Shown here in pieces: positions 13,953 through 56,042 of a stretch of 64,000 nt of DNA. A program made the translations under genes and the position numbers. Location of the stretch: NCBI GenBank assembly GCA_964016885.1, contig OZ024762.1:21638001-21702000 (forward strand). Reading direction: 5' to 3'. Each line of letters begins with the position of its first letter. Position 1 is the first letter of the stretch. The notes under the pieces are model-generated. The model did not search any database. It saw only the letters and a program-made list of their open reading frames with translations, and was not told where the DNA came from. The stretch comes from Eledone cirrhosa (Eukaryota).

Positions 13953-15750
13953 CTATACACACATTTATACATATATATATATATATAAAGTAGATTTAAT
14001 CATATTCTTACAACATGGACCATGATGTTTCAGCAAATTGTGTGTGTGTTTGTTGTTGAAATCTTCGTCGTAGGTATGTTGTAAATATATGAACAAATCT
14101 AGTTATACAATTTGAGTTCTTCCTTTTTTGTAATATATATATATATATATATTCATATATATATATATTCATGTATAGATATATATATATACATATACAT
14201 ATACATATATACATATACATATGATATCCACTGTAGAATTTTATGATACCATGTAAATAGTGAACGTTTTTCTTGGAGGAAACCTAATGGATTGTGTTTT
14301 TAATTATGTATATGAATGACGAAATAAATATACTCCATAAACATTTTTATTTCATCTTAAAACTTATATTCATTTATATTCACTAGGAATTTTTCGAATG
14401 ACAAAAAACAACTTTTGTTAAGTGAGATCATTTTATTTTCGTTTGATGTAAAACGAATGAGTATAAGAAAATTACCGCTCAAAAGTTAGTGTTATTCTCA
14501 TAAACTTGAAACGCCAGCCAGCCTCAAGTTTAAACCTCAACTCCAGATCCTGCTGTTATTTATTTAATTTTTTTTTTTTCAGTCGTGAGAAAAGGATTTT
14601 TCTTGCTGAAGACTTCAATCAACATGGCCGATCTCTCGGTCCAGGCAGAGAAGCGATGACCTTAAATGATCGTTAGTCTAACACACTAACTCCTTGACTG
14701 CGCGTCTTTGAATAAACAGACTTATACCTCTCACTAGCAACACGAAGAATGCTACTGCTAATTAATGCTATCTCAGTGAAGCACGGACTATATGTAAATG
14801 AACTTTTCCGGCAGATATCGTTTATTTTAATCATCACTGACGATGAATTAAAATTTCTGAAACACAAGTGACTACCGTTCTCCCATTGCTACCAAGAAAG
14901 CTGTGACATATTCACAGTTTCAAGCCTCCACAGCGAGATTTATATGTGTTTATTATACATGACAATGGTGTATACTCGTTGTTATACATACATGCCTGTA
15001 TGAAATAATCAAAATCATTTGCTATTCTAGAGATAGTTTTAATGGAGAATAAATGTTATTTCAGAAGCAATGTCTTCACTTAAAAGATAAGAAACTTGTA
15101 AGCTTCTTTTAAGATTTTACTGGCTACAGAGTACATTAAAGTGAGGGTGGAGATTAAAGTCCCATTAAATAGAAAAGGTCAGTGAAGTAGAGAAAGACAA
15201 GAAAGAATTTTCTAATCTTCTTTCTTTTCAAATTTTCTTAAACAGGATACATTTAAATATTTCAGCTGTTAAACATAAGGCGGGGGAATAGAAGTAATTT
15301 TATAGTCTTCTCTTCAAAGCGTCATAGACAGATCACGTTTAAATATTTTAGATGTTAAGGATTAAGAGTTGGTGTAGTTCTTAGAATACCGAGTAAAATG
15401 GTTTGAATTCAGAATACAAATGCTGTCATTGGTCCTTGAATATCAATGGAGTCGTAGGCGTTCCGCCATGTGACACAGCGTAACTTGCGCACTATAAACC
15501 AGGTCAAAACTTTATTTTAGTGTTTTGTCAAAGAAATGAGGGCTGCACCCGTAGATTTAGCAATGTAATCCCTGTGGCATGTGCAAGACCTGTGGGCTTG
15601 GTAAGGGTAGGAGAGAATGAAGCTATCACTCCAGCGTGGCAGCTTTTAAGATTTTTATATAAATTGTTTCTTTCAAAAACAAAACAAAACAGAAAAAAAA
15701 ACCCAAAACCAATATCTATCTATCTATCTATCTATCTCTATCTCTATATA

Positions 15751-15845
15751 TAACAAAGAGGGTGTGGTAAGATACCAGGTGGACCATAACGCACTAGAGT
15801 ACTCAATACTTAGGGTAGTAGAGTAGGTCCTGACACTTTTCCTAT
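15751..15845 (-). mobile_element. Family A 3'-end fragment
   Basis: ggtggaccataacgcactagagtactcaatacttagggtagtagagt, ending in cctat plus (at)n. Confidence 0.7.
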
Positions 15846-18987: not shown

Positions 18988-19333
<346 letters not shown>

Positions 19334-45276: not shown

Positions 45277-45315
<39 letters not shown>

Positions 45316-45406
45316 CGAAGGAAATGTGGTAAGGAACCAGGTGGACCATAACGCACCAAAGTACTCAATACTTGAGGTAGTAGAGTGGGTAATAGGAACC
45401 AGTAAG

Positions 45407-45500
45407 ACCCCGACAGCTGAGCTCAAGCCGTTTCGACGGCTAATTCTGGACTAAATGAAAATTTATCCTGGTATTTAAATAGCCGATCTTCTCAAGGGGT
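45407..45500 (-). ncRNA. Mirror copy of the U3:A8 hammerhead in the opposite inverted-repeat arm
   Basis: Reverse complement of 46497-46590. Confidence 0.7.
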
Positions 45501-46496
45501 AATTCCATATATGGTCAAAGTGGTTGTCAAAAATCAGTAGTAATTCTGTGGTTGCAAATTAGTAGGGGAGATGGTGGCTAAACCTGCCAGTAGGAGAAAG
45601 AGGGGAGGGGTGGAGTAGCCCCAATCAAGCGTTTGTAGTGCCAGCTACAGCTGGGCATGAGGTCAAAGAAGATACAGGGGAGGGGGGAGGGAGGGGGGGG
45701 GGGAAGTCGGAACGGTAGGTAGAACAATGGGGGGTAGAAATAATACTGAGAGTGAAGAAGAGCAAATAAGTGTAAAGAAAAACAAATGAGTGTAAAGAAA
45801 AAAGTACTTTTACTTCGTACGAACTTTCATGTAGCTTGTTTTAGATCTTTTAGAGTTAGCATTAGTATATATTTTTCTCGGGACTCAGAATTATTATCTC
45901 GTATTAGTTCACTTTGCTGCACTGGGTGGTTGCCGGAATTGTGCCCGGGATGGAAACCTTTATTGTTTATTTCGTGGTAGTCTCTTTAGTATTTTAGCCC
46001 CTTTTGTTGACCCGTCACCGTATCATTTACGTACTTATACCTCTTAAAAGGGTATTCGCCTATACCGTCCCACCTAGTTCTTTTACTTATTTCGTTATTT
46101 CTTTATTTCTTTCTTTACTTCTTTCTTTCTTTCTTTATTTATTTTTTCTAGACTAACAATAGCTAGAGACCTAGGTCGTAGAATTTAATTTACTTTACTT
46201 TTTTCTTTACACTCATTTGTTTTTCTTTACACTTATTTGCTTTTCTTCACTCTCAGTATTATTTCTACCCCCCATTGTTCTACCTACCGTTCCGACTTCC
46301 CCCCCCCCCTCCCCCTCCCCTGTATCTTCTTTGACCTCATGCCCAGCTGTAGCTGGCACTACAAACGCTTGATTGGGGCTACTCCACCCCTCCCCTCTTT
46401 CTCCTACTGGCAGGTTTAGCCACCATCTCCCCTACTAATTTGCAACCACAGAATTACTACTGATTTTTGACAATCACTTTGACCATATATGGAATT

Positions 46497-46590
46497 ACCC
46501 CTTGAGAAGATCGGCTATTTAAATACCAGGATAAATTTTCATTTAGTCCAGAATTAGCCGTCGAAACGGCTTGAGCTCAGCTGTCGGGGT
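46497..46590 (+). ncRNA. Type I hammerhead ribozyme, U3:A8 core variant
   Basis: Stem I acccc/ggggt; core TTGAGAA 46502-46508; stem II ga(t)cggcta/tagccgtc; GAAA 46563-46566; stem III cggc/gctg; GUC site ending at 46585. Confidence 0.7.
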
Positions 46591-46994
46591 CTTACTGGTT
46601 CCTATATATATATATATATATATATATATTAGTCAACACTATCTTTTAAAAAACAAACAAACAATAAGTAAATCAATAAGAAATACCTAGTAGCCTCCCT
46701 TGAAATATAATGGACTTTCCAGTATAAGTTATGCACCTTAGATATATATTTTTTCGTTTATTTTCCCTTCAATAGTTACGTTTTCTTGTAATTTTTTTTT
46801 TTTACCGATCATCTGCTATTCGTATTACGCATTGTATTACGCTTATACTGGTGTATCACATTCAATGATTTTGTTTATCAAATTCCATTTACAAGGGTAT
46901 TGTTTAAGCCAAAGCTACAGCAGAAGATACGTCGCAGTGGGATTAAACCCGGAACCACTTGGTTAAGATCCCGCAGCTATAGCTGCGTCAATAT

Positions 46995-47177
46995 GTGGAT
47001 TGGCAGTATCGGTAGAGGGTCGGACGCCATGCTTTCCAGCAGAGTTACGTCCCTTTACGACCTGAGTTCAAATCCCGCCGAGGTTGACTTTGCCTTTCAT
47101 CCTTACGGGGTCGATAAAATAAAGTACCAGTAATGCACTGGGTAATTGCTGGCCTTGTGCCTAAAGTAGAAACAAAT
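46995..47177 (+). mobile_element. SINE family 1
   Basis: Near-identical to 7974-8160. Confidence 0.85.
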
Positions 47178-47359
47178 ATATATATATATATATATATTTG
47201 TGTGTGTGTGAGAGGGTGTGAGTGTGTGAGTGAGTGTGTGTTTGAGTGACTGTGTGTGTGTTTGTATGTGTGCATCTGTATGCACGCACACACACAAAAC
47301 ACACACACATATATATATATAGGGACATATGCATACACCAGACATGATAACTGTCACTT

Positions 47360-48288: not shown

Positions 48289-48513
48289 GTGAGTTTTGTT
48301 GTTGCGCTGCCGTTATATTTATTGTTATTATTGTTGTTCCTTCTGTTGTTGTTGATGCTGCTGCTATCGTTGTTGTTGTTGTAGTTGTTGTTGTTGCTGT
48401 TGAAGATGCTGTTGCTGCTTCTGTTGTGATTGTTGTTGTCATCGTTTTAGTAATAGTAGTAGTTGTTTTACTGTTGTTGATAATCTTGCAGTGGCAGTAT
48501 TAGTAGTAGTAGA

Positions 48514-48592
48514 TCCTTACGGAATCGATAAAATAAAGTACCAGTAATACACTGTTTTATTGCTGGCATTGTGCCAAAAGTAGAAACAATTA
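48514..48592 (+). mobile_element. Truncated SINE family 1
   Basis: Core plus tail only. Confidence 0.7.
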
Positions 48593-48604
48593 TTATTATT
48601 ATTA

Positions 48605-49085: not shown

Positions 49086-49353
49086 TCATCATCAACAGTA
49101 GTAGTAGTATCATTTGTTGTTGTTGTTGTTGATGATTATGTTGCTTTTGTTATTGTAGTAGTAATAGTATTAGTAAGGTATGGTCTCATAACTCCCGATA
49201 GAGTCGTAGGGGGGCGCTGTAGTGGCATACGTCATTTCTTGGGCATTGTAAGCCTGGAGGGGTCCATCTCCTCTCTAAGTCTGAACACAGCAGATTCCTT
49301 CCAGAGAAGTGTGAGAGAGGAATTGTGAAAGAAATATGGAGAGAAAGAAGTGG

Positions 49354-49990
49354 CCCCAGTATGAGACTGGTACTTTTGTTAACGACCTCGCAAGTATGAA
49401 AGACAAAGTTGACCACGACGGGATTTGAACTCAGATAAGAGTAGAGAGTGAGAGAGAGGAGGTTAGAAAGAGATACAGAGGAAGATTTGACCCCAGTATG
49501 AGACTGGTATTTTTCTTATCTACCTCGGAAGGATTAAAGACAAAGTTGACCAATGCGGGATTTGAACTCAGATAAGAGTAGAGAGTGAGGGAGAGAAGGT
49601 TAGAAAGAGATACAGAGGAAGATTTGACCCCAGTATGAGACTGGTATTTTTCTTATCTACCTCGGAAGGATTAAAGACAAAGTTGACCACAGCGGGATTT
49701 GAACTCAGATAAGAGTAGAGAGTGAGAGAGAGGAGGTTAGAAAGAGATACAGAGGAAGATTTGACCCCAGTATGAGACTGGTATTTTTCTTATCTACCTC
49801 GGAAAGATTAAAGACAAAGTTGACCAATGCGGGATTTGAACTCAGATAAGAGTAGAGAGTGAGAGAGAGGAGGTTAGAAAGAGATACAGAGGAAGATTTG
49901 ACCCCAGTATGAGACTGGTATTTTTCTTATCTACCTCGGAAGGATGAAAGACAAAGTTGACCACCAAAGTTGAACTCAGATAAGAGAGAG
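49354..49990. repeat. 137-bp tandem repeat (~4.6 units) derived from a SINE family 1 body
   Basis: ccccagtatgagactgg recurs at 49354, 49491, 49628, 49765 and 49902. Confidence 0.9.
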
Positions 49991-50617: not shown

Positions 50618-52055
50618 CCACCACCACCACCTCAGCCAACACCACTACAGCCAACACCACCACCACCATCTCCTCAGCCAACACCACTACAGCCAACACC
50701 ACCACCACCACCTCAGCCAACACCACCACCACCATCTCCTCAGCCAACACCACTACAGCCATCACCACCACCACCTCAGCCAACACCACTACAGCCATCA
50801 CCACCACCACCACCACCTCAGCCAACACCACTACAGCCACCACCACCACCACCACCATCTCAGCCAACACCACTACAGCCATCACCACCACCACCACCAC
50901 CACCTCAGCCAACACCACTACAGCCACCACCACCACCACCACCACCACCTCAGCCAACACCACCAACACCACTACCACAGCCATCCCCACCACCAACCAC
51001 AACCTCAGCCAACACCACCAACACCACTACCACAGCCATCCCCACCACCAACCACAACCTCAGCCACCACCACTACCACAGCCACCACCACCACCACCAC
51101 CACCACCACCACCACCTCAGCCACCACCACCACCATCATCACCACCACCACAGCAACTGATACCACCACCACCACCACCACCACAGCGACTGATACCACC
51201 ACCACCACCACCACAGCGACTGATACCACCACCACCACCACCACCACCACCACAGCGACTGATACCACCACCACCACCACCACCACGACCACCACTACCA
51301 CCACCACCACCACCACCACCACAGCGACTGATACCACCACCACCACCACCACCACTACCACGACCACCACTACCACCACCACAGCGACTGATACCACCAC
51401 CACCACCACCACCACCACCACCACCACCACCACCACCACAGCGACTGATACCACCACCACCACCACCACCACGACCACCACTACCACCACCACCACCACC
51501 ACCACCACAGCGACTGATACCACCACCACCACCACCACCACCACCACCACCACCACCACTACCACGACCACCACTACCACCACCACCACCACCACCACCA
51601 CAGCGACTGATACCACCACCACCACCACCACTACCACGACCACCACTACCACCACCACCACCACCACAGCGACTGATACCACCACCACCACCACCACTAC
51701 CACGACCACCACTACCACCACCACCACCACCACGACCACCACTACCACCACCACCACCACCACCACCACCACCACCACCACCACCACTACCACGACCACC
51801 ACTACCACCACCACCACCACCACCACCACAGCGACTGATACCACCACCACCACCACCACCACCACCACAGCGACTGATACCACCACCACCACCACCACCA
51901 CCACCACCACTACCACGACCACCACTACCACCACCACCACCACCACCACCACAGCGACTGATACCGCCACCACCACCACCACCACCACCTCTCAGCCACC
52001 ACCACCACCACCACCACCACCACCACAGCGACTGATACCGCCACCACCACCTCCA
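50618..52055. repeat. (CCA)n-based compound repeat punctuated by cagccaac and cagcgactgatac motifs
   Basis: Seen directly in the sequence. Confidence 0.95.
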
Positions 52056-53175: not shown

Positions 53176-53347
53176 CGACATGTACAATATGTCACGCCTT
53201 TTAACGTATGTTTATTACTCTACGATGTTCTTATTGAGTGCTTCGTGCAAAACTTCCGAATATTGTCTTCTTGTGGATACTGGCCGAGCGCCGCAACTTC
53301 AATTTTATTCACTTCCACTCCTATATATATATATATATATATATATA

Positions 53348-53540
53348 TAGGAAAAAGTAAGACCCCGACGGCAGAGCTCAAGTCGTTTCGACAGCTATTT
53401 CTGGACTGAAATAGCCGTCGAAACGGCTTGAGCTTTGCCGTCGGGGGTCTTGCTTTTTCCTATTTCCCACTCTACTACCCTAAGTATTGAGTACTCTGGT
53501 GCGTTATGGTCCACCTGGTTCCTTACCAGACTTTTTTTGT

Positions 53541-53542
<2 letters not shown>
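53348..53542 (+). mobile_element. Family A 3'-end fragment with fold-back
   Basis: taggaaaaag...ctggactgaaatagccgtcgaaacgg...ttcctat, followed by the family A tail. Confidence 0.75.
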
Positions 53543-53589
<47 letters not shown>

Positions 53590-55802: not shown

Positions 55803-55860
55803 TATATGTATATATATTTATATTTATATATAAATGGAGTGAGATATAGAGAGAAAATTT

Positions 55861-55997
55861 AGTCCAGATATAGCCGTCGAAACGGCTTGAGCTCTACCGT
55901 CGGGGTCATACTTTTTCCTATTTCCCACTCTACTACCCTAAGTATTGAGTACTTTGGTGCGTTATGGTCCACCTGTTTCCTTACCACAATTCCTTTG

Positions 55998-56000
<3 letters not shown>
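55861..56000 (+). mobile_element. Family A 3'-end fragment
   Basis: Starts at agtccagatatagccgtcgaaacgg and ends at cctttgtta plus (ta)n. Confidence 0.75.

Positions 56001-56042
<42 letters not shown>

What the first reader, a model, noticed from the sequence alone, without database searches (positions are those of the whole stretch)
46497..46590. Covariant U3:A8 hammerhead ribozyme with expanded stem II in a (TA)n-embedded non-coding element
Seen: stems I, II and III, GAAA and a GUC site are all correctly placed, but the core reads TTGAGAA rather than CTGANGA. Established: positions 3 and 8 form a Watson-Crick pair in the active hammerhead fold, so C3:G8 to U3:A8 is compensatory rather than decay. 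Stem II has a 1-nt bulge and a ~37-nt loop, and the stem III loop holds the palindrome tgagctca (possible dimer-dependent cleavage). Inference: this is a self-cleaving RNA of a Penelope-like or retrozyme-type family that strict CUGANGA searches would miss.
Basis: partly seen in the sequence, partly recalled or inferred. Interest (0 to 1): 0.85.

Follow-up and report, generated by a model that had tools for sequence, protein, structure and literature searches.

The report
Variant hammerhead in active Penelope retrotransposon
This is a hammerhead-ribozyme motif with a known rare core variant, sitting in the end repeat of a young, very abundant Penelope-like jumping gene; the places where its genomic copies break off suggest that the ribozyme likely cuts its RNA in living cells and that transcription likely starts inside its large loop.

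Summary
The motif is present as described. It is the type I hammerhead of the pseudo-LTR of a Hydra-clade Penelope-like retrotransposon, not a non-coding element. The family has a 3.54-kb unit, an intact 717-721-aa RT/GIY-YIG ORF, (TA)n targets and over 10,000 exact partial matches. U3:A8 cores are already published, including in PLEs.

'Covariant' is only partly right. Genome-wide counts are U3/A8 5,241, C3/A8 1,720, U3/G8 45 and C3/G8 10, so positions 3 and 8 do not covary within the family. The source lineage appears to have amplified through U3:A8, U3·G8, U3:A8, C3·A8, then U3:A8. Stem II does covary.

Two results are new:
(1) 5' junctions are about tenfold enriched exactly at the predicted cut (about 216 against about 20 at a control site). 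Both arms often end there, and one copy has poly(A) inserted at the cut. This suggests cleavage in vivo.
(2) Truncated arms start sharply inside loop II, at an initiator-like hexamer, the likely transcription start.

No RNA data or assay confirms either result.

The parts
46497..46590 (+). Type I hammerhead motif (stems I-III, U3:A8 core, predicted cut after C46585)
46502..46508 (+). Core box U3 U4 G5 A6 G7 A8 A9; across the family position 7 is free, position 8 is nearly always A, position 3 is U or C
46518..46554 (+). 37-nt loop II, variable between subfamilies, with a weak inner hairpin
46543..46548 (+). Initiator-like hexamer TTAGTC; A46545 is the modal 5' end of truncated arms and the likely transcription start (inferred; Inr consensus recalled)
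   Evidence: 22 of 114 truncated arms start at 46545, 16 at 46546, 113 within 46541-46555; T[TC]AGT[TC] in 144 of 159 full copies
46572..46579 (+). Palindrome TGAGCTCA in loop III; the GAGCTC core is kept in most subfamilies; possible dimer contact
   Evidence: (dimer -61.9 vs 2 x monomer -45.4 kcal/mol)
46585..46586 (+). Predicted scissile bond C17/G1.1; hotspot of 5' junctions in other genomic copies
45805..46602 (+). 5'-truncated PLE arm (3' UTR plus pLTR), ending 17 nt after C17, without tail; about 91% identical to the full unit in L062
45315..45806 (-). Inverted 5'-truncated arm of the same insertion, with the 80-nt tail
   Evidence: (I1, I3)
45407..45500 (-). Second complete copy of the hammerhead, in the inverted arm
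44906..45043 (+). Short arm starting exactly at the initiator-like A (equivalent to 46545): 3' half of the hammerhead plus tail
   Evidence: (D9)
45074..45147 (-). Shorter tail-only arm
46603..46629 (.). (TA)n target tract; further tracts at 44850-44899, 45044-45073 and 45281-45314

Best explanation
This is the type I hammerhead motif in the pseudo-LTR of a young Hydra-clade Penelope-like retrotransposon that inserts into (TA)n; it likely self-cleaves after C46585 in a minority of transcripts, and the element's own transcripts likely start inside its loop II. SHOWN in DNA: a 3.54-kb tandem unit; an RT plus C-terminal GIY-YIG ORF starting 191 nt after the cut site; two fixed 3' ends (+17 and +97 from C17, both followed by TAT in the element); inverted truncated pairs in (TA)n; and two sharp classes of 5' end, at 46541-46555 (mode A46545) and at G46586. 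INFERRED by analogy with the Anolis PLE studied in vitro (PMC11167929): the protein nicks (TA)n and starts reverse transcription at two internal sites. When it primes on the pLTR at the 5' end of the RNA it runs off that end after 60-140 nt, giving the mass of short hairpin insertions. RNAs started at A46545 lack the 5' half of the ribozyme. Read-through RNAs (tandem units or host promoters) carry the whole ribozyme; cutting gives a new 5' end at G1.1, which is recorded in roughly 2% as many arms as the exact 3'-half matches. Cleavage is likely accessory rather than required: nearly all copies span the uncut site, and lineages with U3·G8 and C3·A8 cores also amplified.
For: PLE identity: intact ORF with RWR, DKT, YRDD, CxCX5C, GIY-YIG, CxxC and CxH motifs, matching the Hydra definition; 29 of the top 30 ORF loci are intact; tandem units of 3542-3543 bp. 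3' ends: 86 of 100 fall on two alignment positions. Structure under selection: stem II two-sided changes in 11, 12 and 10 of 48 sequences at three pairs; 35 such cells against 19.3 in shuffles, 0 of 500 as high; position 7 free. Cut-site footprint: a purine in place of C17 occurs 308 times, 21 of 30 inspected being junctions (about 216; 95% interval 156-263). The same test three bases upstream gives 47, 13 of 30 junctions (about 20; 12-29). Both arms end at G1.1 within 2 nt in 11 of 18 distinct junction loci, against 1 of 13 (possibly 2) in the control. L092, found by the protein search, shows the same double end. L266 has 2 nt plus 28 A between C17 and G1.1 of a complete U3:A8 copy, with no target duplication. 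Start site: 113 of 114 truncated arms begin at 46541-46555; Penelope has an internal Inr/DPE promoter in its pLTR (PMC2377424). U3:A8 hammerheads are reported active in vitro (PMC3088659 section 8).
Against: No RNA evidence: the one RNA run held 5% of the words and did not cover the ribozyme. There is only one control position; positions downstream of the cut were not tested, so a step rather than a peak is not excluded. G1.1 is also just outside stem III, where RT could stall without cleavage. The junction estimate rests on 30 loci per set, the first listed by position. The hammerhead fold has only about 0.17 ensemble probability, with a GAAA-burying rival at about 0.25. Stems I and III show no recurrent two-sided change, and related sequences inflate the shuffle test. 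1,720 matches with C3·A8 show that the 3-8 pair was not strictly needed for spread. None of 25 arms with the downstream signature typical of the main C3·A8 subfamily began at the cut, but that is too few to test a 2% class. A cap-derived extra G before A46545 was not clear (8 of 22, several explained by the partner arm). In Anolis, ribozyme mutants did not affect insertion in vitro, and no reads began or ended at the cut.
Confidence: 0.68

Rival explanations
1. The motif is a catalytically dead or negligible hammerhead relic, kept as a folded RNA element or promoter. Both junction hotspots come from reverse transcriptase stalling at helices (stem III entry; the loop II hairpin), not from RNA ends.
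For: C3·A8 and U3·G8 lineages amplified; competing fold; both hotspots lie at helix entries; metazoan PLE hammerheads cleave poorly in vitro.
Against: Both arms ending on the same base in 11 of 18 loci, single-base sharpness and the poly(A) insert at the scissile bond fit a hard RNA end better than random stalling. U4, G5, A6 and A9 were invariant in alignment A1, though partly fixed by the search patterns; the youngest lineage returned to a paired U3:A8.
Confidence: 0.2
2. Cleavage is an essential step: it releases unit-length RNA from tandem or host transcripts, possibly followed by circularisation, and all amplified core states, including C3·A8, are active. C3·A8 might work through a slipped C3:G7 pair.
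For: 95 of the first 100 C3/A8 matches have G7, against 54 of 100 for U3/A8, and C3 and G7 appear on the same branch. L266 looks like a cut, tailed and rejoined RNA. Long tandem arrays exist.
Against: The C3/G7 link is one branch, so shared ancestry explains it. The vast majority of copies span the uncut site or start at the loop II hotspot; 3' ends are at +17 and +97, not at the cut. The ribozyme was dispensable in vitro for the Anolis PLE.
Confidence: 0.1
3. A stand-alone non-coding retrozyme or SINE-like family, or a chance fold.
For: The window copy has no ORF; folding z-score 0.37; no Rfam hit.
Against: The sequence is the 3' UTR/pLTR of a coding 3.54-kb unit; there are no short tandem monomers; same position and architecture as Hydra hammerheads.
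Confidence: 0.02

Closest known systems
Hydra clade of Penelope-like elements (Craig et al. 2021, PMC8557442), including Hydra-1_Obim
   Same: Single ORF, RT then GIY-YIG; DKT, RW(K/R), CxCX5C linker, CxxC and CxH; (TA)n targets; type I hammerhead near the 3' end; inverted truncated copies and a tail.
   Different: All 26 Hydra motif rows in supplement S2 have C3:G8 and short loop II; here U3:A8, with a 37-nt loop II and a 6-bp stem III. The unit is 3.54 kb (theirs generally under 3 kb) and the tail 80 nt (30-40 described). It is not Hydra-1_Obim: different hammerhead, and 23 of 44 N-terminal residues alike by eye. Copy number here is in the thousands.
Schistosoma mansoni U3-A8 minimal hammerheads of Cercyon PLEs (Cervera and de la Peña 2014, PMC4209133)
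   Same: U3-A8 core in a PLE, long stem II, palindromic helix III region, mostly scattered single motifs.
   Different: Those are minimal motifs essentially without helix III; this one has a full stem III. Different PLE family and host; no in vivo footprint was reported in the parts read.
Poseidon PAc of Anolis (Frangieh et al. 2024, PMC11167929)
   Same: Two internal RT start sites define a tail; AT-rich target; hammerhead at the pLTR-ORF junction.
   Different: Canonical C3:G8 and protein-assisted; no reads were found at its cut site, whereas here genomic junctions cluster at the predicted cut.
Natural U3:A8 hammerheads (Perreault et al. 2011, PMC3088659)
   Same: Same core change, described as natural covariation and active in vitro.
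   Different: Here the same family also amplified with U3·G8 and C3·A8.
Metazoan non-LTR retrozymes
   Same: Type I hammerhead, PLE-related.
   Different: Retrozymes are short non-coding tandem units; this is an autonomous coding element.

Membership tests
Type I hammerhead ribozyme | Three stems around the core, open stem I | tested here: met
   MFE fold; stem II covariation; stems I and III conserved but without recurrent two-sided change
Type I hammerhead ribozyme | Core U4 G5 A6 N7, A9, G12 A13 A14, A15.1:U16.1, H17 | tested here: met
   N7 takes all four bases
Type I hammerhead ribozyme | Canonical C3:G8 | tested here: not met
   U3:A8 in this copy; a published functional variant; Rfam models do not match
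Type I hammerhead ribozyme | Positions 3 and 8 covary as a Watson-Crick pair | tested here: not met
   5241 / 1720 / 45 / 10 for UA / CA / UG / CG, Fisher p = 0.35; paired in this copy and relative to other Hydra families
Type I hammerhead ribozyme | Self-cleavage after H17 | not testable with these tools
   Indirect only: junction excess at G1.1 and a poly(A) insert
EN+ Penelope-like element | Single ORF with PLE-type RT and GIY-YIG endonuclease | tested here: met
   (motifs read from the alignment; Pfam and PDB scans gave no hit)
EN+ Penelope-like element | Tandem or partial-tandem pLTRs, inverted 5'-truncated copies, tail | tested here: met
Hydra clade | DKT in place of DKG; RWK motif | tested here: met
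   DKT present; RWR in this family, RWK/RWR among relatives
Hydra clade | C-terminal EN, CxCX5C linker, CxxC and CxH around the conserved E and N, no CCHH | tested here: met
   against the definition
Hydra clade | Insertion into (TA)n | tested here: met
Hydra clade | Canonical hammerhead; generally under 3 kb (descriptive traits) | tested here: not met
   U3:A8 core; 3.54-kb unit
Hydra clade | RT phylogeny places it within Hydra | not tested
   Reference Hydra proteins were seen only as cut text in a supplement
Non-LTR retrozyme | Short non-coding tandem monomers | tested here: not met
   The repeat unit is 3.54 kb and coding

The most novel reading that the evidence does not exclude
This family keeps a genomic fossil record of a PLE hammerhead cutting in vivo, including cut, polyadenylated and rejoined RNA. 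Its transcription start is nested in the ribozyme's loop II, so that promoter-born transcripts carry a split ribozyme that is completed only by read-through or by the 3' UTR half. The source lineage stayed transposition-competent through U3:A8, U3·G8 and C3·A8 cores, so either the 3-8 pair is dispensable here (perhaps through a slipped C3:G7 pair) or cleavage was tuned on and off.
Probability: 0.3. Interest if true: 0.75.

Novelty: new variant of a known kind. Interest (0 to 1): 0.5.

Why it matters
The role of hammerheads in Penelope-like elements is called unclear in PMC8557442, and the one in vitro PLE system found no reads at the cut site (PMC11167929). A young family with thousands of copies, many intact ORFs and junctions at the predicted scissile bond makes the question testable by counting and by simple assays. 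It also offers a natural series of 3-8 core states that were each amplified, and a candidate reason for the enlarged loop II. The U3:A8 variant itself is known, and only reminds that CUGANGA and Rfam searches miss abundant ribozymes.

Tried and rejected
Rfam at gathering and E-value thresholds: no hammerhead. DNA similarity search of the own genome returned nothing because common words are skipped; exact patterns were used instead. Pfam and PDB sequence scans of the ORF: no hit. RNA evidence: run X1 held 5% of the words, and its one contig lay at 46220-46300 under 90% identity, so there is no evidence for or against expression; no joints were listed in any run. The 5'-end map was biased by patterns spanning the cut and was not used for the cut-site test. 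Cap-G signature before A46545: inconclusive. Alternative register with G46509/A46510 as G8/A9: rejected, because the base after G46509 varies (A/C/T) and G46509:C46562 behaves as G10.1:C11.1. Slipped C3:G7 pair: kept only as a weak idea (one branch). Cut-site footprints in C3·A8 subfamilies: not testable with the few arms in hand. Only pyrimidine at 3 and purine at 8 were counted genome-wide; other states were not searched (run X2 showed no other variant at 10% or more). Earlier scan findings: none. Przybilski and Hammann 2007 and Lünse et al. 2017 are not held, so measured rates of C3·A8 or U3·G8 mutants and further PLE core variants there could not be checked.

Full report
OBSERVATION. The hammerhead fold is the minimum-energy structure of the motif (-22.7 kcal/mol). 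Its probability with an open core is about 0.17, against about 0.25 for a hairpin that pairs the 3' strand of stem II with the 5' strand of stem III and hides GAAA. Energy alone is unremarkable (z = 0.37) and Rfam has no hit.

CONTEXT. The motif ends an 800-nt arm (45805-46602, +) that is joined head to head to an inverted arm (45315-45806, -) holding a second full copy; both run into (TA)n. A third arm (44906-45043) holds only the 3' half. The genome is 3.0 Gb and the window is rich in microsatellites; that it is a cephalopod is my inference and was not tested. Exact patterns give 10,271 matches for the 3' half and 2,092 for the 5' half, with controls at 0. Tandem arrays have a 3542-3543-bp unit with one ORF starting 191 nt after C17; 29 of the 30 best ORF loci are intact, at 717-721 aa. 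The protein has RWR, DKT, YRDD, a CxCX5C linker, a C-terminal GIY-YIG, CxxC and CxH, which is the published definition of the Hydra clade of Penelope-like elements (PMC8557442 section 11). So the window holds 5'-truncated 3' ends of a young, autonomous PLE. Of 100 mapped 3' ends, 86 fall on two positions, +17 and +97 from C17, each followed by TAT in the element. This matches the two internal RT start sites that define the PLE tail in vitro (PMC11167929).

THE CORE. U3:A8 is published: as natural covariation, active in vitro (PMC3088659 section 8), and as about 1,300 hits in Schistosoma, first seen with a Cercyon PLE (PMC4209133). All 26 Hydra motif rows in the supplement of PMC8557442 have C3:G8, as do the hammerheads seen in 5 of 8 related metagenome loci, which represent two distinct sequences. 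Against these relatives the double change is real.

Within the family there is no covariation. One anchored pattern gives U3/A8 5,241, C3/A8 1,720, U3/G8 45 and C3/G8 10, against 13.6 expected (p = 0.35). A public run, possibly of the same source and so not independent, shows T>C at 46502 in 24% of depth and no variant at 46507 above 10%. In older subfamilies the first 100 of 262 matches are U3/A8 78, U3/G8 19, C3/G8 3 and C3/A8 0; all 13 of one subfamily are U3·G8 (counted by hand).

A tree was built from 131 of 159 full copies (near-duplicates removed, positions 3, 7 and 8 masked; pattern-selected sample, midpoint root, bootstrap not converged). It is a ladder with end branches shortening towards the window copy: U3:A8, U3·G8, U3:A8, C3·A8, U3:A8. 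The window's U3 therefore seems to have re-paired a C3·A8 ancestor. C3 arrives with G7 (95 of 100 against 54 of 100, counted by hand), which allows a slipped C3:G7 pair but is a single event. Stem II has two-sided changes at three pairs (11, 12 and 10 of 48 distinct sequences; 49 of the 159 copies were aligned); stems I and III have no recurrent ones. Relatedness inflates these counts.

DOES IT CUT? I asked whether integrated copies begin at the predicted scissile bond. A purine in place of C17 occurs 308 times; 21 of the first 30 loci are junctions (about 216; 156-263), 5 carry an extra G and 4 are point changes. The same test three bases upstream gives 47, with 13 of 30 junctions (about 20; 12-29). 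In 11 of 18 distinct cut-site loci both arms end at G1.1 within 2 nt, five of them with one untemplated A between; one has 319 nt of ORF sequence between the arms. In the control this happens in 1 of 13, possibly 2. L092, reached through the protein search, has the same double end. L266 is a complete U3:A8 copy with 2 nt plus 28 A between C17 and G1.1. This is the expected trace of a cut RNA whose 5' piece was tailed and then rejoined or template-switched, but it is one case, in a set selected for a purine there. Limits: there is one control position, none downstream of the cut; RT stalling at stem III is a rival; and there is no RNA support. The class is small, roughly 2% of the 3'-half count.

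LOOP II. Of 114 arms lacking the 5' half, 113 begin at 46541-46555, with the mode at A46545 (22) and 46546 (16) (7 at 46541 may include older subfamilies that mismatch upstream). In 34 hairpin insertions the longer arm starts at 46545-46546 in 19. A46545 is the A of TTAGTC, which resembles the insect initiator (consensus recalled, from no call); T[TC]AGT[TC] is kept in 144 of 159 full copies while the rest of the loop drifts. Penelope has an internal Inr/DPE promoter in its pLTR (PMC2377424). I infer a transcription start inside loop II. Promoter-born RNA would then lack the 5' half of the ribozyme, and only read-through RNA, or pairing with the 3' UTR half, would complete it.

MECHANISM AND RIVALS. 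Best reading (0.68): target-primed insertion into (TA)n from two internal start sites, with run-off at two kinds of RNA 5' end, capped (46545) and ribozyme-cut (46586); cleavage real but accessory. Rivals: dead relic with RT stalls (0.2); essential cleavage with all core states active (0.1); retrozyme or chance (0.02). A homodimer through the palindrome is favoured in silico (-61.9 against -45.4 kcal/mol), but stem III has six pairs, so dimer dependence is open.

LITERATURE SEEN. PMC4209133 parts 1-2 of 4; PMC8557442 passages, section 11, supplement part 2 of 59 and supplement searches; PMC11167929 parts 1-2 of 4; PMC3088659 passages and section 8; passages of PMC3884650, PMC7151607, PMC6765202 and PMC2377424; bioRxiv 10.64898/2026.07.22.740005 part 1 of 5. 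Przybilski and Hammann 2007 and Lünse et al. 2017 were not available and may already cover mismatch cores or such variants; supplements of PMC4209133 were not seen. Searches listed no paper on this family, on genomic junctions at a PLE hammerhead cut site, or on a start site inside loop II; the library lacks most subscription papers.

VERDICT. A real motif in a known element class, with a known core variant and no 3-8 covariation inside the family. The added value is the junction evidence for cleavage in vivo, the likely start site in loop II, and the amplified series of core states. New variant of a known kind; interest 0.5.

Noticed in passing
L266:1473-1502: Two bases plus 28 A inserted exactly between C17 and G1.1 of a complete hammerhead copy, with no target duplication.
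   Followed up: partly
window 30025-30224, 53347-53544, 55857-56004, 9578-9720, 15712-15828, 19143-19267: Further short arms and hairpin insertions of older subfamilies of the same PLE, beside (TA)n tracts.
   Followed up: partly
L252, L259, L264, L265, L268: An extra G at the cut site (five G instead of four) in 5 of 30 loci; slippage or an untemplated base at a rejoined cut.
   Followed up: no
L062/L063 (G000:C1 about 91.47-91.49 Mb); L070/L071; L075: Head-to-tail arrays of full 3.54-kb units with intact ORFs, up to five hammerhead repeats in a row; likely source loci.
   Followed up: partly
window 6816-7239, 46990-47180, 48513-48593, 49340-49963: A dispersed SINE-like repeat family, with a 226-bp dimer and a 137-bp tandem array of related sequence.
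   Followed up: no
L031:186-1376 (-): 396-aa fragment of an unrelated non-LTR reverse transcriptase with a Cys-rich insert, next to the PLE insertion.
   Followed up: no
L277-L279, L281-L282: Metagenome contigs with related PLE ORFs (37% identity for L277-L279) and canonical C3:G8 hammerheads after the ORF match.
   Followed up: partly
window 44841-44908: Perfect 34-bp inverted repeat centred on a (TA)n tract at the 5' end of the short arm (I15).
   Followed up: no
window 37485-40539 and 50618-52026: Very long simple repeats: about 3 kb of (AT)n and about 1.4 kb of (CCA)n.
   Followed up: no
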